DNA of 64,000 bases from contig CM119372.1 of NCBI GenBank assembly GCA_051294905.1, positions 29,328,001-29,392,000 of the forward strand, given 5' to 3'. The translations under genes were made by a program, and so were the position numbers. Below, one piece after another: positions 25,717 to 60,408 of this stretch (position 1 is the first letter of the stretch; every line of letters starts with the position of its first letter). The notes under the pieces are model-generated. The model searched no databases. It worked only from the letters and a program-made list of their open reading frames with translations, and had not been told where the DNA came from. The stretch comes from Botryllus schlosseri (Eukaryota).

Positions 25717-26286
25717 GTATTTATACTTGGAATAATAGGAATGGTGCAAACGTTAGGTTCGCGTTGGTGGTCCGTGTGCGAACCTCGGAAATGCGGAGGT
25801 TCGCGTTCGCGAATGAACCTTGGTAGGTTCTAATATGTGAGCCTCTTTCGTGTATTACAAATTTTCACGTCACATGTTTCACGCTGGGGCATCTGAGTCA
25901 GAGTAAGATATACAGCAGTGTGACTCAAGTTATTCGAATTATATTCTTCGTGTAGCTATTACATATATATTTTACATAATGGTTTACCAATGGCGTTCCC
26001 GCCTCTGTGTATAACTATCATTTTCTGCTCTTATTTAGAAAACTCTGCACTGAATGTAGAATTTTTGCCTTCTTAGAATGTTGCGTCAATAATAAATTGT
26101 TGTTGATGGATACTTTAGTGAGAACTTAACACTGCCGACAGGTGGTTTTAATGTGGCCTATGAACAATGAACATGTTCGACATTTGTGTCTTTGGAAATT
26201 ATTTACGTCAAAGTATATATTACTAAAGACCTCAACTTTTGGGAAAATGTGCTGGATATTGCAATAATTTTTCTCGTTACTCAGAA

Positions 26287-28823: not shown

Positions 28824-29232
28824 ACTCAGAATTGCCTCGCGGGTCGGATTAAATCGTCTGGCGGACCGGCTGTTTGACACCCCTGATCTAGAGCTAAAGC
28901 CTGTGATGTCATTATTAGGAGCAATGAGGCTCATGAGTCCGACATTTCTTCTGTCAGTATGATATGTATCCCAATATTCCTTGTTCAATGTATGCCTTGT
29001 TCAACTCAGATTTTACCATAGTCAATAGTTCATGTAAACCTAAAATAATTGAGTGATCGTCCCTTTACGAAGCAATCGACTATATTTGCAAAACAATCGA
29101 TTACGATTAATTTGTATTAATTTTCAAATGCGATCGATTACGAAAATAAATGCATGAAAATGTTGTTACCCCATAGTCTATAGTCGATATGCTTCAATGT
29201 TATCGCTTAATCTGGCACTTACAGTTACGGTT

Positions 29233-30113
29233 TAGGGGAAGGTGGGGCACAATGGATACAGCGACACGATGGTACATCGTGAATATTTTAAAACCTCTTC
29301 AGGAAGAATATACATCGCTTCGATGATTTAGTACTGTCATTTCAGCCGTAACTCTTATGTGGTTTGATTTCGCCAATGTCGCTGCCTTTGTCAGAAAATT
29401 TCGAGTACCTTAATTTTACATCGCTACCTTTCGATCATGTTTTAGAAGCGTACATGCCGTTTGTTCTGCTTGAAATTAGTACACAGCTTAGTCGAATCAG
29501 TTAGTAGTCGCCCTGTATGCTATTTTAGGCGCAGGATTGCGGTTTCAACATTTTTTGCACTGAAGAAGTGCTATGGGGCACATTGGGACAATTTGCTTAG
29601 GGCACAATGGCCTATTGATATTCAAAGCAGACTTTACAAAATATATAAACATCGAAAAAAGAGCGCGCAGAAACAAGACCGTCACCAACACGTCCACAAA
29701 AACATATTTTGAAGTGTCACGCAATAAGTCGAGCGCATTAAGGTTCATTTACCACCACTTATAATCAATGTGGATCGACGAGCCGGCAGCGATCTTCATG
29801 CATGTTTCATTACGATTCCAAACTTCGGGATGTAAGCTAAAACTGGTCTTTGACACCTGTTGATCCATCGTTTCTCAGGTTCTTGATAACTGATGCAGTG
29901 TTAATATTACTGTCCCATTTTCCTCCACCGCGCGTCCCATTGTACCACGCCTATGGGGCATAATGGGACGCAAAAGAAACGTCTTTCAAGTGGCTGTGCT
30001 TTCGATATCGATATTCATCCACCGTTTTGCTCAAGTTCATTGGTATTTCTGAATTAGTAATTTTTTTAGGACTGAAAATGTGATTTTTGGCCATCTGTGC
30101 CCACCTCCCCCTA
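29233..30113. mobile_element. Non-autonomous TIR DNA transposon, superfamily uncertain
   Basis: Imperfect TIR TAGGGGAAGGTGGGGCACA / TGTGCCCACCTCCCCCTA; internal GGGGCACA(A/T)TGG motifs. Confidence 0.6.
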
Positions 30114-32571: not shown

Positions 32572-34126
32572 TCATGCTGCCCGGCTTGGAACCGGCACTG
32601 TTTTGCTCACCACCGGCAAGGGTGCAGAGGAGACAGCCATTGAGGTGTAACTACTAAGGTCGCTCTTAGTATCCGTTGGTCGAATTGGTTTTTTGTTCTC
32701 GGGTGACGAGTATGGATAACAGTATTGTGATCAAGTCACTACCTTCGAGTCACGAGTCATCTCGAGTCATTGCAGATTTTGACTCGAGTCAAGTCAAGTC
32801 ACTCGATTTTCAAAGGTGATTCGAATCAAGTCAAGTCATCCGATTTTTGAAGGTGACTCGAGTCAAGTCGAGTCAAGTCACGTCACGTCACGAGTCAAGT
32901 CACTATAGTCGAGTCAAGTTGAATTTTCAAAGTACGATACGTGATTCATGGTCATTGCATTTTGCTAACTGTTTTAAATACAGATGGGATTCCCATTTAT
33001 TCTGAATCGAGGAACGAATAAAGAGTTGATTATACACGCAAGAAGGCGTTCTCTCGCTCATGCATACGTATAGAAATGTCAAACTACGCAAGCATAGCGG
33101 TATGGCCTCAGTCTATATCAGGGGTGGGAAAACTACGACTTGCGAGCCGCATGCTGATCTTTGAGTCTTTGATTGCGGCTCTTCAATGAGTTTGCAATGT
33201 GCATTCGGTGATAATGAACGTAAGCCACTGTGCCTTTTCCGCCAAGATTCGCCCAATAATAATCACAAAGCTAGAATTTAAACCTCATTACGAAAACAAA
33301 CACCAAAACCTTAATTGCCAAGAGTTACCAAAAAAATACATATTTACGGAGTATTATGATTACCGAGGTCCGCACTGTTTGAAGTCGATCAGTTCGATTT
33401 CAAACACCTTGCAGTCTAGGTGGAGACGCATCGTCTTATACCACACGATAATAAACTTCATTCGATACCCAGCATTTCCTTGTGACGGAATAAATTAGTA
33501 TATATAAATTTTTGTGTTGTGACTCTTTTAAGGCAACGATTTTTGATATGCGGCTCGCGCGTGAACCAGCTCTGCCCACCCGTGATCCAGAATTATTAGC
33601 CAAAATATAGGATAGCATATGAAGCATCAGAGAGTTCAATAAAATGATATGGAGCAATACCCTACTGGGGCCTACGACCCTATCCACATATATAAATCCA
33701 TGATATACAATTATAAACGTATGGACGATATTCGTTCGATTTATACAAGCAAGGGGGTTGGTTGAGGTGTGCAAGTTTACGAAAACGTAAGCTATAAGCT
33801 CCGATCACTGCGTTAACGATCAATTCATTAGTGATGCAACAATGCAGGCTCGGCACACTCAGTGAGTGATCGATCAACAATCCGAACTTATACAGGATAC
33901 GGCGATCTAGTCGACATCGATTACTTGTTGACTTGAAATTGACTCGTAAATTTTGCTTTGAGTCACGAGTCAATCTGCATTTTTGAAGCGTCGAGTCAAG
34001 TCAAGTCAAGTCATTTTTGCAAAGTGACTCGAGTCAAGTCAAGTCATACGAAAAAGGTGATTCGAGTCTGACTCGAGTCAAGTCATGACTCGAGTCATCC
34101 CAACACTGATGGATAATATGATACAT
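32572..34126 (-). CDS. Putative last coding exon (S/T/P-rich tail), interrupted by a MITE
   Basis: Acceptor ttcag at 34127-34131. Removing 32720-34108 plus one TSD copy gives the open frame DVSYYPYSSPENKKPIRPTDTKSDLSSYTSMAVSSAPLPVVSKTVPVPSRAA*. AATAAA downstream at ~32555 and ~32177. Confidence 0.6.
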
Positions 34127-36885
34127 CTGAATATTTGACCTATTGGACTCATCTGACCGACCGGTGTAGGACGCCCTGAGCCCTCTCACGGTTCATACAC
34201 TTTGTAAGATACAACATCATTATAGTACATCGCACATATCTGTATATCACGTGACTTATATCTTTCTTCTCGCTACCACGTGACTTACCATTTATCAGCT
34301 CGTGCATTTCAATTACAAACCAGACTCATCTGCGATATCCTACTGTATATTCCATGCATATTCGACCAATATATCTATCTGAGGCAATCCTGTCGTTGCA
34401 TTCACGTTGAAGTTGTCAGATCAAGGACTTAACGCAGGAACGTGCGTCTTACTACCCACGAGCTAAGTATATCCACCCAGCCACACATTACGTGGGACTC
34501 AGGTTACAACTCTAGCAGGTTATCAGACGACACATCCTTCTGCACCGGTAAGCTCCGTAGCTAGTTTTAGTCACGCCGAAACCATCCCATAAATCGCTTA
34601 TACGATTCTTAACCGGTCATCACTAAGGTCTTGATCGAACAAATATGTGAGCTATTTTCAATGAAAAGTCGTATTTTTCATGATTCCAAGACTTATTTGC
34701 CTAGCGGACTCGGATTCTTGGTTATTGCGAGACTGTACCCTGATTTGCATATATTCGTGGCATTTGCACCCATTTTCAATTTTCCTGCTTCTTTGAAATG
34801 AACTACAAGGCGATAAGATTTGAAGTTGGGTTTTATTGCTATATATTTCGAAATGAACCCGGGATTGAGATTTGAAAATGCATTCCAATCTCAAAATCGG
34901 CATAGGATATGAGCTAAGAAGGTAATTAGGAATGAATGATTGAATTGACTGTGGCTGCGGATCTAACCGTACAGGTTCGTGTATACAAATGAATTATAAG
35001 ATAAGTTCGAAGTGTGTACAAACGTATATTTCATGTGTTATTTTAACAACCAATTTTCGCCCAAATATACTTATAGATTTACCTGTTATGTTAATAAAGG
35101 TGACATATCCTCTCGACGGGCTGAAAATGTCATTGGCGGCGGAGCATTTATACTTCGCAGAGTCTTCCAGGGTGGCGCTTTTGATGATTAGTGTTGCCTT
35201 CCCTGGCTCAATTTTTTGAAGAGGTTCTTTCCAAATATTGTCCGTGGGTACGCCGTCCTGTCTCTGCCATTTGACGTTGACAGTCGAAACTCCAGATCCA
35301 GTACATTCGATCTCAATCGTATCTCCGACTGTGTAATCCTTTCTACTGTTCGACAGAGCGAGAGGGAAAACTGCGTGTAATTGAGAACAATATGTTAAGC
35401 AGCGTCATAAAACTAAATAGGTATATGTGATTGGCCGAGAGAAACCATCGATACTGGTAATCGGCGTGTGTATCACAGAACTTCCAATTTTTCAAAACCA
35501 GACTTGTTGAAGTATTCAGATATATTTTGTCGTCATGACATACTTGCTTACTAACGAAGCTCGCATATCACTTCAACATATATACTAGAGTCTAGACCAG
35601 TGGTTCTCAACGTTGGCGATATTGACCCCAGGGGGCGATTTAGCAGTCTAGGGGGGCGAAAATAACGAAGGGGGCGATAAGGGCGATAGCGCGTTAAGAC
35701 GGCTATATTGGAGTCGGGACCGTAACAACCACACCCCAAAATTAGGGGCAAAAATTATATCGTGAATTAACAAAAATTGTAGTGTAATTTTTCAGAAATT
35801 CATACAATTTTTTCCAAAGATTTTTGCGCTGCGCGCGATTTTATAAATTCATATATCTTGACTTTGTGGTACCCGTCCCCCAACAAAAATACGCATGATT
35901 TATGGAAATGGGAGACTTCGGGGTCAGCCATTACTACGCCACGACGCACCAAGACATATGAAGTTAGAGGTCATGTAACATGCGACTCCGAGAAGTGTGC
36001 CAGAACGATCAGCAGCGAGAAGACCTTGGCCGAAAAGGAATGCCCTTGTGCTGACCGAAAACTAAGATATGTATACTTATACATATATGTTTAATTGTCC
36101 ATATGTGCCTCAATGGCTGGCATCGAATGTTCCTGTCCTAGCGACCTTAACCCTACAGGACAAATGCCATCCCGCAAAGAAAAAAATATTTACCAGTTAA
36201 GAAATACCAATTTGAAATCATGTGCGTCTCTTAGTTTGTTACGTTTTTGACGATTTCCATACCTGCTGATATAGCAGATATAGGAGGTCACGAGATAGCA
36301 TCATGTAACGAAGTCAATATAACAACGATTCCGCCGCTGGTTGCTAGTTGATTTGACCAATAGATAACAATGAATTTTGATGTGAAATTTATTCATATGC
36401 ACAAATTTGAACATTCTACCAGAGTTGGAATCACGACGGCTGGTAAACTGAATTCAGATTTGCAGTAGGCCAAGGAGTTTCTGGTTATTCTAAATATTCA
36501 TGTGAAATCCAAGTATATATTCAGTCACATATCAGATTTAGACTTGTATTAGGAAATGATATGAAACAAACAAACTCAAATTTTTACATTAGGTTCGAAT
36601 CCATGGATCAAATGCGAAGCACGATGGATATGTGAAAATATTGAAGAAACTCATGTATGGCGACAAGGCTTGGCGGGGTTGATATAGGAAATTGAGAGTT
36701 AGTATAATGCTCGTGCCTGCACGAGTAAACATGTCTAAAGTAATCATCTCCTACCATCTTCACACACGTAACTCGTCGATCCTTCGCAGTTGTCGGCGTT
36801 TAAGCAGTTATGCGTTCCATCTACCCAGTAGCCGACCTTGGAATTCCTAAAATTAAATCGAAAGTCATGCAGTCATGAATAATAA

Positions 36886-36916
<31 letters not shown>

Positions 36917-39900
36917 CAACCGCCCGGATATAATCGTCAAACTAAAAAAGAAAAGAGAATGCTTATTCATTGAACTGGCTGTCCCAGCTGATCACAACCT
37001 ACTGCAAAAAGAATCAGAAAAACACTCCAGATACGCAGATCTCAAAATGGAATGTGAGAAAATGTGGCGATGCAAAATAAACATTGTACCGATAGTCATT
37101 GGCGCTACAGGGGTCGTGAGCAAAAAACTCATGAGACATATCCAACAAATTCCGGGTAACGTTCGATTCGACATGATCCAAAAGATCACACTATTGGGCA
37201 CTGTGCACATTCTTCGGAAGGCCTTGAATGCACCACTGGACTAAAATTACACTTGTGAATCACAGCATGATTTCTGTAATTTCGATTCTTCATCTTAAAT
37301 CATCTCTACCTCTGCTCTGTAACCCTTGCCAATTCTTCATCTGCTGCAATTCTGTAATCTGACTTCTCCATGTATTGCATAGGAATATCAATTTGAATGT
37401 AGGGTACTGAAATTTTAAAAATTTACTCCAATCTCGCCATTTTCCTTTGGGGGCAGGCTGCTCCCCGGATTATGTGTGTATTTACCAGTTTTACTGTGAA
37501 TAAAGAATATAATAATAATTATAATAATAATCTACCTCTGCTCTGTAACCCATGCCAATTCTTCATCTGCTGCAATTCTGTAATCTGACTTCTCCGTGTA
37601 TTGCATAGGAATAACAATTTGAATGTATTACTGAAATTTTAAAATTTACTCCAATCTCGCCATTTTCCTTTGGGGCAGGTTGCTCCCCGGATTATGTGTG
37701 TATCTACCAGTTTTTACTGTGAATAAAGAAGATAATAATAATAATAACCACTGGACTAAAATTACACTTGTGAATCACAGCATAATTTCTGTAATTTCGA
37801 TTCTTCATCTTCAATCATCTGTAGCCTACCTCTGCTCTGTAACCCTTGCCAATTCTTCATCTGCTGCAATTCTGTAATCTGACTTCTCCATGTATTGCAT
37901 AGGAATATCAATTTGAATGTATCACTGAAATTTTAAAAATTTACTCCAATCTCGCCATTTTCCTTTGGGGGCAGGTTGCTCCCCGGATTATGTGTGTATT
38001 TACCAGTTTTACTGTGAATAAAGAATATAATAATATAATAATTTATAGAGCGCCGAATATAACAATATGTCATTACTACACTAGGGCGCTGTACATAAAA
38101 GGCAATAAAATATAAAAGTAAACGATATGTATAAAAGACAAAGTGCATATAGTTGTAGGGCGGAATGAACACTACTCTAGTTCGAACGCTCGTGTGAATA
38201 AAACGGTCTTGATTTTGCGTTTGAAAACATATAGCGAGTCACATAGTCTAATAGAAATTGGAAGATTGTTCCACAGAATGGCGGCCGAGGAAGAAAAGGT
38301 TCTCACGCCGTAGGTCGATGTTCTGACTCTTGGAACTGACAAGAGCATTTGTTACTGAGAACGTAGCGCTCTTCCAGGATTATACATTGTCACTAGCTCA
38401 CGAAGATACGCTGGTGCACTTCCCTCCATGCATTTGAAGACGTGCATAAGAAGCTTGTATTCATGAACAGTGATCAGCTGTAACTCTTCCAAAATGCGTG
38501 CGCATACGGTATTTTACATCGGCACCGCCGTGTAGAGTGAAGTGTACCCTTACTACACAAAAGTAGATATCCGAAATTTTACCACGATGTCCACGGTGTT
38601 CCCTGATTTATTCCTATCCAGCCGCGTCCTTGTAAGCATTTTACCCCGAGTTCAAATTCTCATTTTTTCCTGCGCCGATCTGTGTTTAGATTACGTTTAC
38701 TTCGCTCACCAGTTAATGCTTTTTTCGATTTTCGCAATTACGGCATCCGAATCCACCACAGCAAGTCTGAACCCGTCCTTTTTACAACCGCTTCTCGCCA
38801 TCTCCTGCGTGCCTTTCTCGACGTCAAATTTTCGGATTGAGAAGAGTCTGTCGTCAATCTGACTCCTTTTATATTCGGACGGTTCTACAAGCAAAAAGGG
38901 TTGTATTTGAATCAGTTGCCGTTGCGACGAATCGAGATTATTCAACTAGATCAGGGGTTCTCACTTCTCAACCAGTGAGAGTTCTCAAGTGGTGAAAATT
39001 TAGTTAAATTTGTCTTGTTATTCGCTCTAAAATAGGTTTGCTGTTCATAATATAGAATTATAAGTCGGCTGCATAACGCTTTTCATATGACTATGATGAA
39101 ACCTATTGGCATGTATGGAGTGACAATGTCGAACATGAAAGGGGGGAGGGGGAACGGCAGCTTTTGTTTCCCAGCTATGACAATCTACAGCTAACAGCGA
39201 CAAAAGTAATTTCGATTGTATAACAACTGCAAGTCAATACTCAAGTTACCAAGTATTACGGCAGGGTCCATGGCCATGCAAGTGCATTGGCATATGCCGT
39301 TGGAAAGGGCGTGTACCGTGTGAAGTGCATTAAATTTGGACGAAAGCGTATTTGATGTAGATTCGAGGTACTTACTTAGGAAGGTCCTGTTATTGTAACA
39401 GAAAAATAGCCATAGTTGCAAATTTTATCAATTATCAACTTCCTGTGAAACTATATACGGCACCACCGCAACGAATCGTGATGGATTGAGGATTAAGTGC
39501 AATAGGCCTGCATTGTCCGGCCTTGAAATCATTAAACATAATGCAAGAGTTACATGAATTGATTGTATCAGTGAATTGAATACTCTGAGATCACAACTTC
39601 ATTAGGTGATTTCGATCCGACCATCGTCGCGCGAGGACGTCTCGAGGCAGCTTTAAATATTGCACAGGATTTGTGCAGCAATAGCATGAAAATCCGATCT
39701 TATGGAACTCATTTTTTTTGTTCGTGGCGCACAAAGCCGGAAACCGCGAAACTCGCCATTATAATATTAATAATAATATTAACTTCAGTAGGTACAAGAA
39801 ATACTGTGTACATTGCACGATATTAAAAATTGTTTTCTCCCCTTCACCAAAAAATTGTTTGAAGCGGGCTCAAATTGTTTATGTCATTACCCACCACAGT

Positions 39901-42900
39901 GGAACTAACAATCCAATCACACAGTGGATTCAGTGTGTTGATGATTAAGTTTCGCGACGTTAGTGAACAGCGAACGGCCCCAATGTATACAATGGTTTCA
40001 CGATCTGCCAAGGCCGTAACTGCCGTGCCCAAAACCCTCAATTGAGGGGAGATCGAAGGGGCCCAAAATTATTTCGTTGGTCTTTTGTCGGAAAATATTT
40101 AGTCAACATTAAAAATTTTGTCGCGCTTCTCGCGATTTCATGTCACTAGTGGTATAGATTTATATGACTAGTAAGAGAAAAGGTACGTATTTTGAAGAAA
40201 TAGATTTATTGGCGCAGGCGATTATCAACGCATCAAACAGAACTATTATATGAGGCGGGCCTTAGAACAATTTCAAACCGGGAAATGGGCCACGGCCAGA
40301 AAGGGGTTGAAAACCACTGAACTGAACTCGTAGCTTCATATGTTTTGTTTTCTTTTATGTCCACTATCTATCTTATATGAAACCGTAGAACTCACACTTT
40401 GGTGGCGAGATAGCGCCAGAGGTGGTCTGTAACGAAGCACTTCTACTTATTTGAAGTACTCAAGTAGTTTTCCTCTACTGCTGGTACTTACTCGAATAGA
40501 TTTCATTTTCGCTATATTCACTTCTACTTCGTAATATTCTGTGATCTACTTACTTACTTTTCGATATTTTCAGTTTGTCAAGTAGAAGTAGTTTAATCTT
40601 ACAATTAGGAGGATAGCCTGAGGAATTTCGAGACTGTTTTTCTGGAGTATTCAACTGTCATAGAAGTGGAGTAAAGCCCAGAATTTTCGTCGTGCTTCGC
40701 GCTCAGTTGATACAGAGTAACCATTATGATTTCACGAAAGTATAAAATATATAATTTATATATTATAAGTAGTGGGTTGGCGTGGTTCCTTTCACACTTC
40801 ATTATCGCCCACGCTCACATGGAATATTTAATGACAGTATATATGGCTCATCATAACGTTTGTAACTCATGTTTCGAAATCTAGCATTAATTTATCATAT
40901 CGTAATTCAGCAGTCTATAGCGTGTCCTAATCTGGAAAAGTAGACTCTGACTTTTTTTAGTTTTAGAGTTTTTAATCATACCACCTCAACACCTTCGAAA
41001 CATTCTTCTAGACTTAAGACACGAAATGCATATAACGTTTTTAGAAGTAGTATATATATTTCACTTTCAATTCTCAGTATCATTGACTTCGGGTTCTAAT
41101 TAATATCAGTTCTTTTGTCTGGAGAACATACATGTTGAAGTATAAAAGCAAGTGTAGTAATGCCTTTATTTCCGAAAATAAAGTTAAATATGACATTTTT
41201 ACGATCCACGATCCACGATCCACGATCCACCATCCACACATCCACGTAAGCGGTGTCTTACAAAAAGCCTCAAAGTTGGCCGCGCTACAAGTCGGCAGAT
41301 ACCGATACAAAAATCAAAAAATCGGCCTGGGGTTAAATGACCATTGTAGTCGACAAACACCATGAATACCCCAAACAAACACACTTTATGTTGCAAATTA
41401 TCATACCTACATGTAAAAAGTAGTTAGATCTATCATAATTCACAATAATATCTACCAAATCCAATAGCCATGGCGAGATATAAAAATTATTGAACTGATC
41501 GTGTTGATTTGTTCTACTATTGCGAATTAATGAAAGTGGTTACTTTTCGGGCTGCTACCACCTCTACTGCTTTACGTTCATATTTCACGCTCTAGGATTG
41601 TTGAGTATGAAATATAACTTATTGCGTCATTTCCAGCAAATCGTTTCGTATCGGGCGAATATTATTCACCTTGAAAGCAAATGAAGGGTTGCTCACGCCC
41701 GCAGTCAATATCATTCCACGTGTTGAATGGCCACTCTAAGGCAGCGCAATCTTCCTTTCTATGGTTATCCGGCTGACTCGGTCCCCTGCAAATTAGAACA
41801 TCGCTAACATCATTTTGTTGATATGTAGTAGTCATTTTGAGGGATCTGAGAATATGGATAAAGATGTACTTAAAATGAGATACTTGCGACGCCACACTTG
41901 GATGGAATAGGACCCTCGTAGGGAAAACAATACGTATTACCACGCAGCGTACTGGTAGGTTATACAGCTGCAACACCTATGTGTAGCTTTTTCGACTTCG
42001 GCCGCGTTCGACTCCAGAACTTTTCGCTCAATGTTGGAGGTGTGAATGAACATAAATAGCAAAAACAACCACTTCAAAATGGTACTTCTAGAAGCTACAA
42101 CATGTTTCACTACCGGCGCATGCCGTCAGAATGTTTTACCAGCTTGCACCCAACGAGTTTGGAAATCCTCGCTTTTCGTTTTCACTGTTCGTTTGGTTTT
42201 GATTACCAAACTCCCAAGCAGGGTTGTAATGACTCGAGTCATGACTCGACTCGAGTCCGACTCGACTCACGTTTTTCAGATGAGTCGACTTGACTCGAGT
42301 CATTTTCTCAAATTACAGAAATGACTCGAATCGACTCGAGTCAATTTGTGTATTGACTCGACTTGGACTCGAGTCATTGCGCATGACTCGAACCAAGTCA
42401 TATGACTCGAGACTCAGAAGACCAAGACCGACGTTTCATTGTAATTTCGAGGAATAGTAAAGCAATGACACTATTGGGATTTCGTCTATTGGTGTTGGTA
42501 CTTGAAAATGCGCCCAGAAACTGCTAAAATGACGGAAATTAGTATATTATAAATGCGAACCATTCGATATCACTTAACAGAGTTACAAAAAGTGGATTTA
42601 ACAAGCCTTTAACTGGAAACTCGGCAGTCAACACAATGACTTTGACTCGACTCGAGTCATAATACCATGACTCGGACTCGACCCTCAGCTCGGTGACTTG
42701 AACTCGGACTTGACTCGGTGGTGGTGGTGAATTGAAAATGACTCGACTTGACTCGAGTCAAAACTATAAAACTGACATTGACTTGTGACTCCGAGCATTG
42801 TGACTTGGTTACAACCCTGCTCCCAAGTAAGACTGCAGATGTTACTACGACATAGACTCTGGTATTTTAGAGTCCTTTTTCGCCGGACAATCGAGACATC

Positions 42901-45900
42901 AACATAATTCACTTCACACCAGTGACGTGAAATCATATAAAATGGTGTAGCTAGATTCCCCTCATAGCCTATATATAGTAACTGGTATGGCAGATTTGTG
43001 GCAAGAAATGAGAACTACTTTATTTGCACAGAAATTCTGAAAATATGACGAATCCACGTTTTTGTTTACAATATAGATTCGGAGCAAATTCCTACAATGC
43101 CATATACAATATTCAACGCTTGCCTTGATCTATTATTTATAATACTCAGCCAGTAAAGTAATCCTCAAGTCATGAGCCGAGACTCTAGAGTCGTAGTTGG
43201 ACAGATTTTTACCATCAGACTGCCACGAGAGCCGCTGTAAGGCCTATCTTCAAGGATTTGGCAGTACCTGTACTCACCAATTTGTATATCCGGAAACTGG
43301 AGTGCCATCATTCCAGAGCCACCTGCCTTCATTGTCGAGATCATTCATGCCGATTATTGGGCTCCAATAATAAGCACTGAAATTTAAAAAGACTTTCAGG
43401 GTATTGATGATGCAGAAAAAAAAAAATTTTAATAGAGGATTCATTTATCCTGGCAATCATGGGCGGTAAGGGGGCTTGTGATCAAAGGGCTTGATAAATC
43501 CTTATTTAGAAAGCAACATGGAGCGGCATCCTATGATTTAAAATATCTCTATGCTTATTAGCACTGTTTCCTCTAAGCTGCGCGCGTGCGCGGCAGCGCG
43601 CAGAAAAATATGTGCTATCCCCGAAAAAGCCGAAGTGATGACCTTTTTTATAGTCGTTACGCAATGCTGTCTAAGAGATCGCGCAGTGAGATGGTGAGTG
43701 CGCGCAGTGTCATGAAAATTTAGAGGGGACATTGCTTATTAGTTGGGGTTTTTTGAGTCGTCACACCTAAGTGCTGGCCCGAAACTAAAATTAGCTTCTT
43801 TTACTATGAGCTGTTTATTGCCAACGAGTTGAAGGTAAAGGTGTCATGATAGACTCAATAAGAGTACTTTCAAACTTCTGATACAAAAATTTCAGTGTGC
43901 TAAAGGTCGTTTAGTCAGGATCCGACTATTCCTCGTTTTGGCACGCTATAACATACTTTTCATTGCATGCCCAATTCGATCTCGCCTTCCGTGACATGCC
44001 ACCTCATTTTTGTCGCGTGCTTTTTTAAATTAATTTCTTTTCTTTCAGTGTGCTGTGCATGTCTCCTCTTTACATTGCCTAGGCCAGTTGTTCTCAAAGT
44101 GACGGGCGCTACCGCGTGAAAGCATCTGAAGAGGGCGCGAAGATGCGTTCAACTGAAAAAATTCGCGCTTTACGTGATTTACCCCCGACTCGTAGTTATT
44201 GCTCTGTGTATAATCATAATTTCAGAGTTAAGAATTGTCTCATTCACATTCATAACCATCCATGCAATCAAACTACCCGTTGGGATTGCTAGCATTCTGG
44301 CTGCATTTTCTGAAATGACGATAAGGGAGCGCGAACGTTTTCACTATCATAAAGGGGAGCGTGTCTAAAAAAGTTTGATAACCACTGTCCTAGGCCAAGG
44401 TGGTTGTCTGATTTCAAGGACTAGTCGTTTCGAGACCCTTCTATCTTTTCATTGTATCGCCATTTTTGCGGTGTATTGAACTGATGAAAATTGCTAATAA
44501 CAAACCAAATACCGATATCGAAACGCCCCAGTCCAGTCTATCCAGGGGTGTACTGGTCCACTGGCCTAGGCCAAGGTGGTTGTCTGATTTCAAAGACTAC
44601 TCCTAGTCGTTTCGAGACCCTTCTATCTATTCGTTGTATTGCCATTTTTGTGGTGTATTGAACTGATGAACATTGCTAATAACAAACCAAACAATAATAT
44701 CGAAACGCCCCAGTCCAGTCTATCCAGGGGTGTACTGGTCCGCCCTCAAGATTAACGGTCCACGGCCTGACCTTTCGATCTCGCCTACCTCGACATGTCA
44801 CCTCACTCTGCCGCTTGCTTTTTATTTTATTTTTCTTTCACTGAATGCCTCCTCTCCATCGTCTATGCCACTGGTCGGAAACCTATGGCTCGCGAGCCAT
44901 ATATGACTCTTATGGGTATAAGATTTATTTGTCAAATATTTATTTTTATACTGAATTGATCAATATTGCTGCGACTTGTTAGTAAATTTTCATCACGGCT
45001 AGAATAATTACTACCGCGGCAACATGTATATGAGATCGGACCCCCTCTTTTTGAAATCCTTAAATTTAAGTTACTGTTGCGCCGGCGGCGAATATCACTA
45101 ACGAATTTGATTCGAAATCTTTGATTGCGCGATACGTTAGTTCAGTGGTTCTCAACCTTTTTGACCTCGCGGCACCCTGTGGACATGAAAAATAGTTCGC
45201 GGCACACCAGCACAGCAGTTGTGAGATTTTTTGGGCTACAGCACCTGAAAACCACCTGAATACTTAGCAGGAAGTGGGTGCTGCTGACTAATGTGAGCAC
45301 CACTGCAGTCAATCGTAAATTTTTATGTATTAACCCATATCAGCACAGGGATTTTAGGTAACTTAATCGGCGCACACGTTGACAAATTGTCAACCTGGCA
45401 TTTTCTCTTGTTTCTCAATGCAAAGACGCTAGTCTCGTAGTGAATTTGTTATTTTAAAGGATTTTATATTGATAAAACCTTAAGAAACGATCATTGATAC
45501 TAATTTGGAGGAATGTTTTCTTCCACTTACGGATGATGATGATTCCGGAACATCTAATTGACGCACCTACGGGGCTCGTTCACTTTCGGACCAAACTCAG
45601 TACAGCCTTACGGAGCAAAAGGGTTTTTGGTCCGAAAATGAACGAGCCCCGTCCTGGTCCGGGTTCGTTATATTCCGATTTTAGAATTAGGCTGCGTGAT
45701 TCGAAAAATGCCACTTTTGAAATGTTAGTCAACATATTAGCTCTCAGATAAAATGCAAAGACACCTCAAATATGTGACTGGCAGTAGTGAACTTGAAGAG
45801 TTCTTTCCGAACTACATTCAGTGTAGTAGAATTTATTAACTCAAAAACTCTTCGTGTGCCCGTTATCAAGAGTTCGCGGCACAATTAGAAGCAGAACGAG

Positions 45901-48900
45901 TTTCTATGTAATCTTAAAATACCGTTAATTGTCTGTGTAATGTGTATTGTATTGTACGATTTGATTCTCTCTTGTCACGACTACTGGAGTACCGGTACAG
46001 CTAACTTTGTCTAGAGTTCCTTTTATTATTGCATTGTTACGTCATAATTAGCCAATTTGGTTTTCTGTAGATTTCTCATTGTGTGGTTACCTCCTGATAA
46101 GGGGTACACGAAAAGCCTTCGAGGTAATATACTCTACTGCAATTACTGTAGTTCTGAAAGCAATATTGAACAGTTCTACCGGAAACAAAACAATTTATTT
46201 AATTTCATTACTAACAAAAGTCAGTGCGAAATTTGCGCTCGACTTCTAGCGCATATCCAGTCAATGTCTCGATCACAGGATGCACATGCACATATGATAA
46301 TGCTATTATCACCCTCATCTCTTCTTCAATAGCAAGTAACCTCCCTATTTATTTGGGCTTTTATGTTGACCAGAATGGAAATCCAGTCTCGCGTGGAAAA
46401 TTGAAGTACAATCACAATTGCCTTTTCTCCAATGCAATGATATTCCTTCCGGATTTTCATTCAAAATTCGTCGACAGCCATCTCATTGTACCATAACTTC
46501 AAGCTTCCGTCAGTACGGATGTAAATCAGCTCTATACCTCCTCTTTGAGATTTAAAGTAAAATGGGTTCTTGTGGCAAAAATGGGTTTCTTACCCATCCA
46601 TAGTTTTCGGTGACTAGTGTTGGAAAATAAGCGTATATTTTTGCATGCAAACAATTGAGATGCCGAACAAATTATTGCACGATTTCCCTGTTATTCGTTT
46701 CGGAGAAATGGGAGAACATGGTACAAATTCCTGCTGCTGCTTGTACTGACCACATTTTGAATTTCTTTCAATTCTCTAATTTTGCAACAGTTTTCATTCT
46801 TGCTTGCGTACTGGAATTTGTCTTATTTAGGTGGTTAGAGATAGGCCTATCTACCAATCATGCTAATATCTCTGAACATGTCACAAATACGTCTACGAAT
46901 GGTATCATTTGACATGGGAATGGTTTTTAATTCAGCTGCAACTTTGGTCACAAACATCTTATTGACAATTCCAGTGCAAGACGAAAAAATACCTTTCTCT
47001 GCTTCCACGCGAGGCTTTGAGAATTGTACAAACTTCACATCAAGCTCGATTTAGATTATTTATTGATCGTTTTCTATATACTAGAATTATTTAGCTCATA
47101 ATTTGAAAGTTTCGAAGAAATCGCTCGCGGCACACTTGAGAGACGTAAATGGCACACTAGTGTGCCGCGGCACACCGGTTGAGAACCACTGCGTTAGTTG
47201 ATCAAAGATAGTAGCAGTGTTGGGATGACTCGAGTCACCTTGTTCGTATAACTTGACTTGACTCGAGTAACTTTGATAAACTAACTTGACTTGACTTGAC
47301 TCGGCGTATCCAAAATGTGGATTGACTCGCGACTCAGAGCAAAATTCTCGAGTCAATTTCAAGTCATCAGGTAATCGGTGTCGATAAAAATCGCTGTATC
47401 TTGCATATGGTCGGATTGCCCGCGAAACGCTGGAATAACCCGTGAGAGCGACTAATCATTCAATGATCGTGCGTTTCAGTGAGCCTCCAATGTTATGTCA
47501 CAAACAAATTGACCACAAACGCAGAGATCGATGCTTATAGCTAGTATAGTAAAGTAATTTTATAGCAAAATGTCTACTTCTGTTCTCTGTCCTTACCTTA
47601 ACCCAACCTCTTGTTTTACTGAAATTGAATTCGAATATAGTTTATATAGTCATCAACCATCGGCACAGGCTCTAATTGTATCATATTATATCATATCAAT
47701 TTGTAAAATGTTATGTATTGCATCATATCAATTCGTTTCTCAATTCTCTATTTTGGCTGGTACCTATAAACTTAGCCTATGCAATAACTTACGTAGTTTA
47801 GCAGTTCTACGTATATGTGAGCGTGCATATTTAACTCTATATTCGTTCATTGGTTCAGAATCAATGACCAATCAATCAGTATTATATCAATCAGGTAGCA
47901 AAATGCAATGACGTAATCATGCCTCATAACTCGAGAGGGCAACTTGACTTGAATTGTGACTTGACTCGTGACTTGACTTGACTCGAGTCACCTCCAAAAA
48001 TCGGGTGATTTGACTTGAGTCGAGTAACCTTCGAAAATCCATTGACTTGAGTTGACTCGAGTCAAAATGTGCAGTGACACGAAATGACTCGTGACTCTAA
48101 GGTAGTGACTTGATCCCAATACTGGGAGAGTAGTGGACATAACGACGGCAATATGATAACGCAGGTATCAAATACACATCGTATTCCTGATCTTCGCCAT
48201 GAAATCAACTGCTGTGGACGTGACTTTCAGAATTACAAACTCGAAATCTAAACAACGCCTTATCCACGTTCTTGATTAGTAAGGGTAGTTGTGTAGTACC
48301 GGCGATAAAACTCATGTTAACTCATGTTACATGATACCGCCGAATACTTTGAGAATAGAGAAGTCGATCAGTATTTACATTTTCGGAATCAGTGCGGCAG
48401 TTACATCGAATTAATATCAGTTATAATAAATTCTAAGATATTTACGATGAATTGCGTTATCAATGGTGAGGCTTGGCTGTGCCTTACCTGTGGTTTCACG
48501 CTTTATTTAGGAAAAATAAATATGCAAATTGCGTGCATTTGGGAGAAAAATGTTCAAAATCTAGTTTTTCATGAACATCAATAAAAAATACCAATGGTAA
48601 ATATTGCTTTCACAATTTTCGTTCACTCATCCTGACGACAGGTGAGGCACTGCCTCACTTGACTCACCTGACTTCACGTCACTGATGTATCAAAATTAAA
48701 GTGAGTATGCCTATACTGCTGTAGTGACCATGTTTGGCTTCACCTAAGCATGTGATCATGGGTTCTCGCATTTAAAAGGACCATCACGACGAACCTACGT
48801 TCTCGTATACCTCAAGTTTCGCATGCTCAAATAAGGCAACCAGCATAATTAGTAGGCTTACGAGTTTTTACGGAGGAAATGTGGCGCACACGATGAATCC

Positions 48901-51900
48901 CGTGTAAGTGAGTTCGAATGAGTGCTACCATGACGTTAGGAATTTCTAACTGTGACGTAACAGCTGATTGGTGTGTATGGTTCTTTGATAGTTAAAATGA
49001 AAAAAAAAAACGGCCAATATGACTCTTCGGTGAAAAAGGGTTCCCGAACCCGGCCTAGCCCAAGGTGAATGTCTGATCTCAAAGACTACTCCAAGTCGTT
49101 TCGTCACCTTCCTATCTTTTCATTGTTTCGCAATTTTGTTGTGTAGGCTATTGAACTGAATAAAATTGCTAATAAACCGATCCGACATAGATGAAATCAA
49201 ATGTAATATTAAAATGGAAAATCATTTCATTTCCAGGACTAAACACAATCGGTTGCTGTCTTGTTAGCTAGCCGAAATACAAATAAACATGTACGCGAGT
49301 AAGCCGAGTATGCTGAATTCGTTTTGAACGAAATTTTCTCGTTTTCATGAAAGTTGTCATGATGAAGATCAAATATCCGAAGCGTATTTTCATGTGATAA
49401 CTTCCCATGTGTTGTTCGAGGCGCCACATTATATCATAAATCATAGTATCCTACAGTGGCGTGGGCTCAACCAAATCGTATTAGGTCACTGATATTGGAT
49501 GCGTCATTCTCTCAATTTGACGAAGGGAAATTTTCATCATTACTTCGTTTAGCTTGCAGAGAAAAAAATTTGATAGAAATAAGTATTATTACATTTTGCT
49601 ATATATCCTGTTATAGGCCCCGTTACTCTCCAAATTGAGCCTCGGATTTTGCAATTAGACAACGTTAGCAGTGATACGCAATAATGCCATCTTGAATAAT
49701 GATGTCGCCACTCAGGAGCAAGTGAGCACCGGTGCAGCTAGTGTAAAAGTGAGAGTGCTCAATCGCCGACGCAGTAATGGGCAATACGCTTGGGTTTTGC
49801 GCCGCAGCTCATCAACTCCTGATCTCCGGCATCGTTATTCAAGATGCCAAATTTCGTCACAATGAAAAATTCGAGACTGATTTTGGGGGTGATCAAGGGC
49901 CTCTAACAGAATAAATTTTATTTGCTGTAATCAGTATGGCGGTAGTTTTCGATTGATATGAATTTCATCAAATTTTGATATTCGCAAACCAAAGTAAATA
50001 GTGTCGTAAATTGCCCTTGGTCAAATGAAGAGAGTGACACTGATTTCCTTGTGTCCACACCACTGTGGGGTACTATGGTAGGACAATATGATCATAATAT
50101 TTCAGCGTGAATAAATTTCAATTGCACATGATAATATTTAACACGCATGCTTTTAAATAGGGCTGGGCAAAATCGAGTACCTGAGGGATTCGATTCTGAA
50201 TCACGTAATATGCTTCGAGTCGAGTCGAGTAATCGTGTATAGCTCATTATGGCGTCATAATAGAAAGTAATACGTCAAAGCTCAAATATATACCGTTTAT
50301 GCCACCACAAAGAATATAATGCCTGTTATTCATTTCATAAATGATCTTTTGGTATTTTTTGGACCATGTCAATTTCATTCCACCTGGTGACAACTGTGGG
50401 ATAATCATGAATTCGGAAATATGCTACGTCCAGTAACCTTTGTGGCGTACTGCATGTTTCGTATGCTACGATACCGCCAATCAAGGTTTTAAGTCTTCAA
50501 CAGTGAAATAAGCAACGAAACTATAATTCTCGTTGATAAATCAACTTTCAGTGGCGAGAAGCGTACAATTTCAGTACTCGAAAAAATCGTATTTTACTAC
50601 TCGACTCGAATCAATATAATTAATACTCGATTCAGATTCGAGTACGCGAATCATTGTACCCAGCCTTACTTTTAAAACAATAAAATTTGATTAAAGGGAT
50701 AGAAATGATTACCAACCTCTGGTCTCGTTTATTGACACAATGAACTTTAAATGACGTCAATGGCTTGATTCGGTTTGTCATCAAATTTGAAATACAATAT
50801 TCACTGTAATCCTAGGCTAATTGATGACGAGTGGTAGGCATTAATTTCGTGTTTATTTCAATGTGAATATAATATTTAATTGAATATAATATATAACAGG
50901 GGTCGGTAACGTATGACTCGCGAGCCATTTACGGCTCTTTTGATGATTTATATATGGTTCTCCTATTTTCAATTCGACACTTTATTCACATCGTATTTCT
51001 GCAACCTATTTGCCAATTTCCATGACGGTGAGAATAATTACTCTGATGGCAGCTGTTGTTTTAATGTATTCATGGCAGCCGAAACGAGTGTATGTGACAT
51101 GAAGACAGTTTCATATCCGGGATTTTAGCGGCTTGGAATACGCCTTTCAAAATCCTAAATTTTATGTTAGATGTTGCCTGATGATGATTGTTCATTTAAA
51201 TCAGTCCAATATAACAGTTTATTTCTATAATTGGGCAACACGGTCATTTACGGTTCCGCACCGGACACGTCTCATTCTTTGGATTCGATGCGGGGTTTGT
51301 GTAATTGCAAATACAAAGTTGCGGTCGAATCGACAACCAATATATCGCGCGCGAAATCGCCGTAGCTGACATCGCACGCATTGATATACTGGATTGCACG
51401 ATGCTTTGATTGATCGGAAAGAAAGACGAGGCGACGCTCGTATGGCAATGCGGTTTTCAAATCCACATTGTCTACCTGATCATCGGCGAGAAATGAACTC
51501 TCTTGGAAGTGACATTACATAAAAAACGTTCCCGACTCCTGATGCATTGTATAATTATCAGTTGCTTTTTCGATATTCCGATTTAACTCGCTATGAACTC
51601 GCTGCCAACGATGATCCGTGTACATGAATCGGAAGCGAATATTAATTGTAAAGATTCGAGACGAACAGCAAGAGACAGCTTTTCCGGTATGTAAATTATA
51701 CGATCCTTTTCTCAAGGAACTATATTTTTCCCAGCGACTAATCTCGATTCGAAATTGCTCGTGGGTACTGTGCTACTCAGTATCCAGCCGTCAAAGTATG
51801 AATTACTAACGGGATCATCGTTACGAATTTCGAGCTATTTGAGTTGTGAAATGAAAGTGGATTTCTGAAAATGGGCTATGCTACATGTAGCGATTGCACC

Positions 51901-53375
51901 TCAACACTATGAAGTTTGATAATACGGGGATTATAGGGATCCCCATGAATGAAAATCTGAAATATAGTCCGAATATGACTCCTTTGACGAAGGAGGTTTC
52001 CAATCCCTGGAATAGTGGACATCAGTATTCAGAAAAAATGTCAACTTACGTTCCTACAGCTTCATACATCAGGTCATAAACCTCCGAGGTGACATCTGCG
52101 CTCTTTATAAACACCAAGTTTTTCCAGCCCAAGTCCTTGCATCTCTGTGTTGCCACTGCCCACATTTCATTACTTGTAGTATAGAGCCCATATAGATTAC
52201 CAGTTGTTTGACCGACCGACACGTAGAGGGGCTCCTCCGCTGTAATTCAATGGGGCATAAGAACGGCATGTTCCGCATGGTCACGTTACTTACATCGTCA
52301 GGATAGAAAATCAGTGAGCAAATATTTCCCAATAAATATATAGCCTATGGCATCATGAAAGCCTCTCTCTCTCATGAAACCTCTCTCTAACGAAGAGTTA
52401 GTTGTTCACACAAATGCGTATATCGTGTATATGTAGTAGATGTAGGAATGGAAAAGTATCTGTAAAATATGTACTGTTAGGATTTACCGGATTGACATTG
52501 AAGTCGTGACCGAGAGTAACGCCAAAAGAGCAACGCAAAAAGATTTTCAATTTGACCATATGCATATTATGACGTCATATTTTTAGATTCCAAAGTTGCG
52601 TACTTTATGACGTCATAGACACTAATATCAAGTTTATATTCGAAATGCATGGGAACACAACTCACTGTATGCATTTCGAATGTGAACTTGAATAGCCCTG
52701 ACGTCACTGATATTTAATTGTGACGTCACTGTGGATTGACATTGACAATTGAAGATACAAGGTAAAAAGGGCTCCTTCGACGAAAAGAGCTTCCGACCAC
52801 TGTCATGAACAGACCAAAAATATTTTTAACCAGGACTACATCGTTATGCAGCATTTCCACGGCCGGCGGTCATCATCATCTGAACAGCCAGTTCGTACCT
52901 ATATTTACTTGCTATAACTGATGAACCGAAGACGATTCCGAGGTTCCAGCCTTTCCATATCGTATACATCGACCAGATCAGGTGCAAATTATCTGTGGGC
53001 TCATTCTGTATGTTTTTCGAAAGTATTTACGTAATTATGACATGGTTATACAACGTTTGAAAAAAATGATATTTTAAAAAAGACATTTGTTTAAAACAGT
53101 GTTTAAAACATGTTTAAAACACCGTTTGTTTTAAATGCAAACTTAAATCTATATAGTGATAAAAGCGAAAAAAAATTGCATCAATTAGGAAAGGATTCTG
53201 GAGTCGCCCTCCGTCGGACTGGAAACCACGATAAAATGATGGTCAACATGATGGTGCAGTGGTGAGACATTTACGAGATAACACTACAATGCTAATCACC
53301 AAGAAGAAAAAAATCATGCATACCTTGGGCGATGTTGGCACCGAAAAGTAGAACTGCACTCAGTACCACTATCAT
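32572..53375 (-). CDS. Multi-exon gene for a secreted C-type lectin + immunoglobulin-domain protein (exons 53375-53324, 52239-52050, 43376-43278, 41785-41670, 35370-35083, 34126-34109+32711-32572)
   Basis: All introns are GT-AG and phases match (1,2,2,1,1). Product: MIVVLSAVLLFGANIAQA signal, CTLD with 4 Cys, QPD and WND, Ig domain, S/T/P-rich tail; ~300 aa if the MITE is removed. Confidence 0.85.
32720..34108. mobile_element. hAT MITE (GACTCGAGTCAA family) inserted in the putative last exon
   Basis: TIR CAGTATTGTGAT / ATCCCAACACTG; perfect TSD atggataa (32712-32719, 34109-34116); inverted paralog at 47215-48124. Confidence 0.9.
35083..35370 (-). CDS. Exon: immunoglobulin domain (I-set/C2-like), phase 1-1
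   Basis: cgcag|...|gtaaat; reads FPLALSNSRKDYTVGDTIEIECTGSGVSTVNVKWQR...ATLIIKSATLEDSAKYKCSAAND...FINIT with the C...W...DxAxYxC signature; absent from the ORF track. Confidence 0.9.
36878..36916 (+). repeat. (AAT)3(AAG)10 microsatellite
   Basis: Read directly; abuts the 5' end of the R4/Dong-like fragment. Confidence 0.9.
36917..38041 (+). mobile_element. 5'-truncated R4/Dong-like non-LTR retrotransposon (restriction-like endonuclease domain) followed by two extra tandem 3'UTR copies
   Basis: 36918-37244 reads NRPDIIVK...LFIELAVPAD...KHSRYADLKMECEKMW...IVPIVIGATG...LLGTVHILRKAL*; 3'UTR occurs three times, each ending in (TAA)n. Confidence 0.85.
38030..38460 (-). mobile_element. L2/CR1-group LINE 3' fragment
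   Basis: Minus strand reads YKLLMHVFKCMEGSAPAYLRELV...RALRS*...TYGVRTFSSSAAILWNNLPISIR...FKRKIKT; 3' stem TACAGCGCCC...GGCGCTCTATA and (TTA)n tail. Confidence 0.85.
41245..41383 (+). mobile_element. 5'-truncated SINE copy
   Basis: gtaagcggtgtc...ggccgcgctacaagtcgg...aaacaccatgaat matches the SINE family; preceded by (GATCCAC)n. Confidence 0.75.
41670..41785 (-). CDS. Exon: C-type lectin domain part 3
   Basis: ttgcag|...|gtgaat; (W)GPSQPDNHRKEDCAALEWPFNTWNDIDCGREQPFICFQ. Confidence 0.93.
42219..42819. mobile_element. hAT MITE (GACTCGAGTC family), intronic
   Basis: Perfect TIR CAGGGTTGTAA / TTACAACCCTG; perfect TSD ctcccaag. Confidence 0.92.
43278..43376 (-). CDS. Exon: C-type lectin domain part 2
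   Basis: tttcag|...|gtgagt; AYYWSPIIGMNDLDNEGRWLWNDGTPVSGYTN(W). Confidence 0.92.
43562..43734. mobile_element. Small (173-bp) hAT MITE
   Basis: TIR CACTGTTTCCTCTAA / TTAGAGGGGACATTG; perfect TSD cttattag. Confidence 0.8.
44085..44387. mobile_element. Charlie-like MITE
   Basis: CAGTTGTTCTCAAA / TTTGATAACCACTG ends; TSD gcctaggc/tcctaggc. Confidence 0.7.
44382..44741 (+). repeat. Tandem duplication, ~176-bp unit x2; partial third copy at ~49053-49175
   Basis: cctaggccaaggtggttgtctgatttcaa...ccagtctatccaggggtgtactggtcc occurs twice. Confidence 0.85.
45143..47191 (-). mobile_element. Charlie/Buster-type hAT element with decayed transposase fragment
   Basis: Perfect TIR CAGTGGTTCTCAACC / GGTTGAGAACCACTG; perfect TSD cgttagtt; 46847-47038(-) contains LKTIPMSNDTIRRRI, a Buster/Charlie transposase-like motif. 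Confidence 0.9.
47215..48124. mobile_element. hAT MITE, paralog of 32720-34108
   Basis: TIR CAGTGTTGGGAT / ATCCCAATACTG; approximate TSD gatagtag/gagagtag; GACTTGACTCGAG arrays. Confidence 0.8.
50158..50668. mobile_element. hAT MITE
   Basis: TIR TAGGGCTGGG / CCCAGCCTTA; perfect TSD cttttaaa; ACTCGA/TTCGA repeats. Confidence 0.82.
52050..52239 (-). CDS. Exon: C-type lectin domain part 1
   Basis: ttacag|...|gtaagt; EEPLYVSVGQTTGNLYGLYTTSNEMWAVATQRCKDLGWKNLVFIKSADVTSEVYDLMYEAVG(T), with the W-x-x-A-x-x-x-C and LVxIxS pattern. Confidence 0.88.
53324..53375 (-). CDS. Exon: start codon and signal peptide
   Basis: ATG...MIVVLSAVLLFGANIAQ G|gtatgc; phase 1 joins the next exon to give AQA-EE, a plausible cleavage site. 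Confidence 0.82.
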
Positions 53376-60267: not shown

Positions 60268-60408
60268 AAAAGTCATGTTGTATGAGCCTACGGACAATTA
60301 CTACCCGACATAGCCGACGTATACGATATGGAATGATTGGAATCCTCAAAATAGTCGGTCCAACAGCTATTGTATACGTTGATATATCGTCAAGGTAGCT
60401 ATATTTAC

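What the first reader, a model, noticed from the sequence alone, without database searches (positions are those of the whole stretch)
32572..53375. Hidden 21-kb gene: secreted QPD-type C-type lectin fused to an Ig domain
Only one exon shows in the ORF track, yet six exons splice in phase into signal peptide-CTLD-Ig-S/T/P tail with no transmembrane segment. Known: QPD plus WND indicates Ca2+-dependent galactose-type binding. CTLD+Ig soluble proteins are rare; from memory one was reported in the tunicate Botryllus schlosseri, and mollusc CREPs combine the domains in the opposite order. Inference: a soluble innate-immune or self/non-self recognition molecule.
Basis: partly seen in the sequence, partly recalled or inferred. 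Interest (0 to 1): 0.72.

Follow-up and report, generated by a model that had tools for sequence, protein, structure and literature searches.

The report
Secreted lectin–immunoglobulin gene, hidden mini-domain
This is a real, spliced gene, probably of a sea squirt, for a secreted protein made of a sugar-binding lectin domain, a second much-shortened lectin-like domain and an immunoglobulin domain; it resembles a tunicate protein reported in 1997 and may help blood cells catch microbes.

Summary
RNA contigs from two studies, partly backed by raw RNA reads, give eight exons, not six. Two extra exons (38884-38710, 36846-36755) lie between the lectin and Ig exons. The last exon starts at 32329, which puts the proposed S/T/P tail at 32572 in an intron. 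The product is 342 aa: signal peptide, canonical CTLD (QPD, WND), an 88-aa four-cysteine domain, an I-set Ig domain and five more residues, with no transmembrane segment. The middle domain looks like a duplicated CTLD that lost its long loop (ESM Atlas 0.91 to Lectin_C clusters, cysteine spacing, intron phases). This is inferred: alignment to domain 1 was not significant. No close protein relative was found. The closest known protein is Botryllus BSCLT (1997: CTLD then Ig, soluble); identity could not be tested. Best guess: a secreted opsonin-type lectin (about 50%). Nothing supports a role in allorecognition.

The parts
53324..53375 (-). Exon 1 CDS: 18-aa signal peptide (12-residue hydrophobic core, A-x-A cleavage site by eye), phase-1 donor; in-frame TAA six codons upstream of the ATG
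   Evidence: outside the stretch laid with RNA; contig lengths fit its inclusion
52050..52239 (-). Exon 2 (phase 1 to 2): N-half of CTLD1 (beta-beta-alpha1-alpha2), Cys51
43278..43376 (-). Exon 3 (phase 2 to 2): CTLD1 beta2 and first half of the long loop
   Evidence: Lectin_C E 0.076; RNA joint 43277/41784 in X1, X2 and 2 reads of X23
41670..41785 (-). Exon 4 (phase 2 to 1): QPD, E125, WND, Cys127/142/150
   Evidence: Lectin_C 27.9 bits, E 4.2e-6; best PDB match MRC2/Endo180 E 2e-5; RNA joints
38710..38884 (-).
   Evidence: found; RNA joints 41670/38884 (X1, X2) and 38709/36845 (X1, X2, 8 reads of X23); Atlas 0.91 to clusters with Lectin_C, 19 of 30 hits
36755..36846 (-).
   Evidence: RNA joint 36755/35370 (X1, X2, 1 read of X23); Atlas hits only 0.75-0.85, leads only
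35083..35370 (-). Exon 7 (phase 1 to 1): I-set Ig domain, Cys264/Cys317, sequon N335
   Evidence: Pfam Ig_3 E 2.3e-11, I-set E 7.3e-11, V-set below cut-off; PDB titin, Dscam, contactin; RNA
32177..32329 (-). Exon 8: last five codons, stop TGA 32315-32313, 3' UTR with AATAAA at 32182
   Evidence: RNA joint 35083/32329 (X1, X2); X2 contig runs down to 32209
32572..32697 (-).

Best explanation
An eight-exon gene of a (probably botryllid) ascidian encodes a secreted 324-aa mature protein: CTLD1, a compact CTLD-like domain, then an I-set Ig domain. Shown: exon structure for exons 3-8, expression, no TM, intact QPD/E/WND motif, Ig fold family. Inferred mechanism: CTLD1 binds galactose/GalNAc-type glycans on microbes or altered cells through Ca2+ site II. 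The Ig domain docks on a blood-cell surface protein, so the molecule bridges target and phagocyte (opsonin), as shown for crayfish PcLec3. The middle domain arose by duplication of a phase 1-2-2-1 CTLD exon set, followed by a deletion that removed the long loop and the intron in it. It cannot bind Ca2+/sugar in the canonical way and probably serves as a rigid spacer, a dimerisation surface (one CRD alone binds weakly, and there is no collagen or coiled-coil stalk and no spare cysteine) or a Ca-independent binding site. It is most likely BSCLT or a relative of it.
For: Five consecutive GT-AG joints in spliced contigs of two studies, with skip lengths equal to the predicted introns (1492, 2785, 1863, 1384, 2753). 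In raw RNA run X23, three of the five appear in the joint table and the last as a variant joint of 10 reads; the exon 4-5 joint had no read there. 342-aa open frame; the eight most hydrophobic 19-residue windows all start at residues 1-8. QPD + WND + Glu fit the site II description in PMC7618208 (passages). The ten cysteines fall 4+4+2 by domain. Exon 5 has the same phases as exon 2, and exon 6 the same as exon 4. Atlas features of exon 5 point to Lectin_C clusters. PcLec3: Ig bound hemocytes, and only the full-length protein promoted phagocytosis (PMC4944128 Results section).
Against: No functional data. The opsonin role is an analogy to an unrelated crustacean protein. The middle domain's CTLD identity is not proven: no Pfam hit for either exon, no PDB sequence hit for exon 5, chance hits only for exon 6, domain 1 vs 2 alignment reached by 462 of 2000 shuffles, and no BLASTP alignment of exon 2 with exon 5. 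The Atlas clusters carry Lectin_C on only 11-24% of members. The organism and the BSCLT link were not tested on sequence. None of the five joints appeared in single-cell run X21 (3 in 100 of the run read), so the cell type is unknown.
Confidence: 0.5

Rival explanations
1. Same protein, non-immune job: a secreted matrix or tunic adhesion/developmental lectin that cross-links galactosylated extracellular glycans with an Ig-binding partner during budding, tunic building or resorption.
For: The Ig domain's best PDB matches are adhesion and structural I-set domains (titin, Dscam, contactin, neurofascin). QPD ligands are often self glycans, and galactose-binding C-type lectins act in budding of another colonial ascidian (recalled, no call).
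Against: Secreted Ig-plus-lectin proteins that have been tested in invertebrates (PcLec3, Ciona VCBPs) act on microbes and hemocytes. There is no matrix-type stalk or repeat.
Confidence: 0.25
2. The middle 88-aa domain is not a CTLD derivative but an unrelated small disulfide domain; the protein is CTLD-X-Ig.
For: No significant sequence match to domain 1, Pfam or PDB. The inner cysteines are only five residues apart. The single-sequence model of exon 5 was two helices with no strands (pTM 0.30).
Against: Atlas 0.91 with 19 of 30 hits in the Lectin_C set and recognition 3944; weak CTL-named hits for exon 6 as well. The last two cysteines are spaced C-x7-C as in domain 1, the first sits in an A-x3-C-x3-G-x-x-L pattern, and the intron phases match.
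Confidence: 0.25
3. A polymorphic soluble self/non-self (allorecognition) factor.
For: Run X1 has a second Ig-exon contig with 17 other letters in 257, beside an identical one. Ten reads of X23 carry three other letters at the start of exon 8.
Against: These variants could be a paralogue or ordinary allelic diversity. The five listed pieces of the X2 contig and X1 contig 6 that cover other exons have 0 differences from the window. No link to the fusion/histocompatibility locus was tested or found.
Confidence: 0.08
4. The first reader's six-exon CTLD-Ig-tail form exists as a minor splice isoform (skipping exons 5-6).
For: Skipping exons 5-6 keeps the frame. 43 joints were not shown.
Against: Not among the 15 best-supported joints; both contig sets include exons 5-6. 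The tail has no usable phase-1 acceptor.
Confidence: 0.07

Closest known systems
BSCLT of Botryllus schlosseri (Pancer et al. 1997, PMID 9212174; paper not held; seen only as described in PMC4944128 and PMC7916673 passages)
   Same: Soluble; CTLD N-terminal; intermediate (I)-type Ig C-terminal. A recalled size of 333 aa and a 38-kDa band is close to 342 aa and 36.5 kDa plus one N-glycan site here.
   Different: Neither secondary description mentions a second CTLD-like domain. The recalled length differs by 9 aa, and a recalled 'Greek-key signature' pattern did not match here. No BSCLT-like record came up, which argues for a paralogue if those collections hold BSCLT (unknown). My odds: same gene 0.3, family member 0.4, independent fusion 0.3.
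PcLec3 of crayfish (PMC4944128; abstract and Results section read)
   Same: Secreted, signal peptide plus Ig plus CTLD; the model for the opsonin mechanism.
   Different: 252 aa, two domains, V-like Ig, arthropod; no sequence comparison was made.
Gastropod CREPs / BgSel (as described in PMC4944128 and PMC8878817 passages)
   Same: Ig and CTLD in one protein.
   Different: Opposite order (Ig first); reported as restricted to heterobranch gastropods.
Compact CTLDs: Link modules and bacterial CTLDs (PMC9630629 passage)
   Same: CTLD-type domain without the long loop; the review says Link arose by deletion of the long loop.
   Different: Here both inner cysteines follow the W-x-D-G strand, whereas in Link modules one precedes it (recalled). 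No Xlink hit on the separate exons. The domain sits behind a canonical CTLD in a secreted lectin, not in a hyaluronan-binding proteoglycan.
Ciona VCBPs (PMC5465252 passage)
   Same: Secreted tunicate Ig-plus-glycan-binding proteins acting as opsonins.
   Different: Two V-type Ig domains plus a chitin-binding domain; no CTLD.

Membership tests
Canonical Ca2+-dependent C-type lectin CRD (domain 1) | Lectin_C profile match and four conserved cysteines | tested here: met
   exon 4 alone 27.9 bits vs cut-off 22.6; Cys51/127/142/150
Canonical Ca2+-dependent C-type lectin CRD (domain 1) | Site II ligands: EPN/QPD, downstream Glu, WND | tested here: met
   QPD 118-120, E125, WND 137-139 against the description in PMC7618208
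Canonical Ca2+-dependent C-type lectin CRD (domain 1) | WIGL core motif | tested here: inconclusive
   the place is taken by I-I-G-M with the Trp three residues earlier
Canonical Ca2+-dependent C-type lectin CRD (domain 1) | Ca2+-dependent galactose-type binding | not testable with these tools
   motif prediction only
Compact CTLD (domain 2) | CTLD fold (two helices, two sheets, two disulfides) | tested here: inconclusive
   Atlas supports; Pfam, PDB, pairwise and half-domain folding do not; the whole domain was not folded
Compact CTLD (domain 2) | No long loop, no Ca-binding motifs | tested here: met
   only three residues between YWVDG (217-221) and Cys225, against about 36 between the matching Gly90 and Cys127 in domain 1; no QPD/EPN/WND
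Link (Xlink) module | Xlink profile match; inner cysteine before the G-W strand (recalled) | tested here: not met
   no Xlink hit on either exon scanned alone (weak test); no cysteine between 186 and the YWVDG strand
I-set immunoglobulin domain | Profile match above cut-off, B/F-strand cysteines, C-strand Trp | tested here: met
   I-set 42.4 vs 23.7; V-set 22.5 vs 26; Cys264, Trp276, Cys317
BSCLT | Soluble, CTLD N-terminal, I-type Ig C-terminal | tested here: met
BSCLT | Sequence identity or orthology with the 1997 cDNA | not testable with these tools
   paper not held; sequence not returned
BSCLT | 333 aa and an N-terminal Greek-key signature (both recalled) | tested here: inconclusive
   342 aa; the recalled pattern gave no match; figures and pattern come from memory
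BSCLT | Source is Botryllus schlosseri | not tested
   only earlier AI notes on this genome say tunicate/Botryllus-type
CREP | N-terminal Ig, C-terminal CTLD | tested here: not met
   order is reversed

The most novel reading that the evidence does not exclude
The middle domain is a true long-loop-less CTLD of only 88 residues that arose in ascidians independently of Link modules, by a deletion that fused two exons of a duplicated CTLD. With a galactose-type CRD in front and an Ig effector domain behind, the protein is an antibody-like two-ended plasma molecule of a family with diverging alleles or paralogues, whose true three-domain build has gone unnoticed since BSCLT was reported.
Probability: 0.35. 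Interest if true: 0.65.

Novelty: new variant of a known kind. Interest (0 to 1): 0.42.

Why it matters
Soluble CTLD-Ig proteins are rare, and the one tunicate example has been cited since 1997 as a step towards Ig-based recognition. My searches found no functional follow-up on it. An RNA-supported gene model makes expression, glycan-array and phagocytosis tests straightforward. If the middle domain is a compact CTLD, it is a second animal case, beside Link modules, of losing the long loop, with the event still readable in the exon phases. If the gene is simply BSCLT, the gain is a corrected domain architecture.

Tried and rejected
No whole genome is held, so paralogues could not be counted. 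Within the window, tblastn found no second copy. Word-index protein searches with the Ig exon (265 candidates, none scored), exon 2 (6 candidates, none) and exon 4 with flanking codons (no candidate) were blank; these are weak negatives. phmmer over 1.84 billion representatives with the Ig exon gave 1240 hits at E<=0.001. The 150 listed were all multi-Ig proteins of 523 aa or more at 25-38% identity, down to 76 bits, so no close single-Ig relative ranked. None of those 150 matched domain 1 at E<=1e-3. A metagenome scan found 235 pattern matches, none confirmed. Plasmid tblastn with exon 4, meant to collect CTLDs for a profile, had no match. Folding exon 5 and, as a control, exon 2 alone and searching PDB gave nothing for either: the control failed, so the test is uninformative. 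In one search no indexed holder was on record as RNA; the four raw RNA runs were added by species label. Rejected: a type II membrane anchor (in-frame stop six codons before the ATG); exon 6 as a mutually exclusive alternative to exon 4 (both lie on one contig chain with exon 5 between them); the ORF at 34838 as exon 8 (skipped by the main joint); Link-module membership. A search for an ascidian Link/CTLD paper gave one unrelated listing. PMC514892 and PMC10433773 passages held nothing on this architecture. Supplements were not read; gene lists in Botryllus transcriptome supplements may name this gene.
Full report
Observation. The window is AT-rich animal-type DNA full of repeats. Pfam supports them: Lectin_C 27.9 bits on exon 4 (cut-off 22.6), I-set 42.4 bits on the Ig exon (cut-off 23.7), V-set below its cut-off. 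The same search turned up two more exons between lectin and Ig, 38884-38710 (phase 1 to 2) and 36846-36755 (phase 2 to 1). All seven join without a stop.

RNA test. I laid four runs on 23600-43599: two sets of Logan contigs from different studies (X1, X2; RNA is the tool's guess) and two raw RNA runs (X23 bulk, 6 in 100 read; X21 single-cell, 3 in 100 read). Five of the 15 joints shown have CT..AC ends on the + strand (GT-AG on the - strand) and form one chain: 43277/41784, 41670/38884, 38709/36845, 36755/35370, 35083/32329. Their skip lengths (1492, 2785, 1863, 1384, 2753) equal the predicted introns. All five are in both X1 and X2. X23 has 2, 0, 8 and 1 reads for the first four, and 10 reads for the last with three other letters at the exon start. 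X21 shows none of the five. Exons 1-2 lay outside the laid stretch. The X2 contig (1145 nt) leaves 253 nt beyond exon 3 and X1 contig 6 leaves 267, against 242 nt of exon 1-2 coding sequence, which fits.

Anatomy. The gene has eight exons and encodes 342 aa, with stop at 32315-32313 and AATAAA at 32182. Residues 1-18 are a signal peptide by eye. An in-frame stop six codons upstream rules out an N-terminal extension, and the eight most hydrophobic windows all start at residues 1-8, so there is no TM segment. The mature chain is 324 aa, 36.5 kDa, pI 4.6, with one sequon at N335. Domain 1 (19-153) has four cysteines, QPD 118-120, E125 and WND 137-139. This is the site II set described in PMC7618208 (passages), where QPD goes with galactose-related sugars; PMC9630629 (passages) says the same. 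It lacks the Trp and glycine loop that sharpen galactose selectivity in the asialoglycoprotein receptor (recalled), so selectivity may be modest. The Ig domain (242-337) is I-set, nearest in PDB to titin, Dscam and contactin domains (27 sequences at E<=1e-5). Only five residues follow it. The ten cysteines fall 4+4+2 by domain, leaving none spare.

The middle domain (154-241, 88 aa). For a CTLD origin: exon 5 has the phases of exon 2 and exon 6 those of exon 4. Its first cysteine sits in an A-x3-C-x3-G-x-x-L pattern like helix 1 of CTLDs (pattern recalled). A YWVDG strand follows the second helix, and the last two cysteines are spaced C-x7-C as in domain 1. The ESM Atlas put exon 5 at 0.91 next to clusters with Lectin_C (19 of 30 hits; the family on 24% and 11% of members; recognition 3944). 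Exon 6 gave only leads at 0.75-0.85, two of the four shown being CTL-labelled (recognition 1911). Against: no Pfam family for either exon (but exon 2, a true CTLD half, also has none), no PDB sequence hit for exon 5, chance hits for exon 6, and no significant alignment to domain 1 (462 of 2000 shuffles as good; none). Folding half domains was uninformative, since the control failed too. I put the CTLD-derived reading at about 70%. If right, only three residues separate the beta2 strand from the next cysteine, against about 36 in domain 1. The long loop, all its Ca2+ sites and one intron are then gone, which is the definition of a compact CTLD. PMC9630629 lists only Link modules and bacterial domains in that class. 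The cysteine placement differs from Link (recalled).

Relatives. No close relative was found (details under Tried and rejected), there is no second copy in the window, and no genome was available. Earlier notes on other windows of this genome call it a tunicate, one 'Botryllus-type'; I did not test that. No note covers this place or a look-alike of the Ig exon. Variation exists: X1 holds one Ig-exon contig identical to the window (depth 60) and one with 17 other letters in 257 (depth 11), and X23 has the variant exon-8 start. Allele and paralogue cannot be told apart here.

Mechanism. Best reading (about 50%): a secreted two-ended recognition protein. Domain 1 binds galactose-type glycans with Ca2+ (inferred from motif). 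The Ig domain binds a blood-cell partner (inferred by analogy: in crayfish PcLec3 the Ig but not the CTLD bound hemocytes, and only the full-length protein raised phagocytosis, about 30% vs 10% of cells; PMC4944128 Results; Ciona VCBPs opsonise through their Ig domains, PMC5465252 passage). Domain 2 supplies spacing, dimerisation or a Ca-independent site (inferred). Rivals are a matrix or developmental lectin (25%), an allorecognition factor (8%) and, for structure, a non-CTLD middle domain (25%).

Comparison and verdict. BSCLT of Botryllus schlosseri is described as CTLD at the N-terminus, intermediate-type Ig at the C-terminus and soluble (PMC4944128 and PMC7916673 passages). I could not see the paper itself; 'BSCLT' occurs in only one relevant paper of the library (3 listings). 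This gene meets those features. Recalled details (333 aa, 38 kDa, a Greek-key signature) are close in size but not identical, and the sequence could not be compared, so I file it as working like BSCLT and probably related, not as BSCLT. CREPs fail on domain order. I found no description of a CTLD, compact-CTLD, Ig protein in nine paper searches, which leave out most subscription journals and all supplements.

Noticed in passing
window 34838-34693 (-): Stop-ended frame in intron 7 with a phase-1 AG and a faint likeness to exon 5 (4 of 570 background segments scored as high; no Pfam hit). The main transcript skips it; it may be a decayed exon, a rare last exon or chance.
   Followed up: partly
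window 53396-53395 (-), 20 bases before the ATG: Acceptor-like AG just upstream of exon 1: possibly a non-coding first exon or a trans-splice (spliced-leader) site. X1 contig 6 extends about 25 nt before the ATG by length.
   Followed up: no
window 35114-35370 and 32327-32329: A second Ig-exon contig in X1 with 17 other letters in 257, and a three-letter variant at the exon 8 start in 10 reads of X23: divergent allele or paralogue.
   Followed up: partly
window 11772-13523 and 18008-19734: Inverted repeat, 98.2% over 1752 bases, about 4.5 kb apart, with tandem arrays (14379-15038) inside: foldback-type element.
   Followed up: no
window 9153-9378 and 10612-10836: 226-base inverted repeat, 94% alike, MITE-like.
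   Followed up: no
window 36879-37244 (+): 121-aa frame in intron 5, 33 bases from exon 6 and on the other strand, starting in an (AAG)10 run. It reads like the C-terminal restriction-type endonuclease of a non-LTR retrotransposon (recalled); Pfam gave nothing.
   Followed up: partly
window 37232-38042 and 44382-44741: Tandem duplications of 226- and 182-base units inside introns 5 and 2.
   Followed up: no
window 27390-27925, 32720-33039, 33878-34108, 42219-42818, 47226-47418, 47821-48124: A dispersed repeat built of GAGTCAAGT-like units; it probably accounts for much of the RNA depth in intronic bins.
   Followed up: no
window 62107-62736 (+); 59654-60520 (-): 209-aa frame with a SAP domain (E 1.6e-6) and a coiled-coil-like stretch, probably the gag of an LTR retrotransposon; broken frames at 59654-60520 look like non-LTR reverse-transcriptase remnants by eye (no Pfam hit).
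   Followed up: partly
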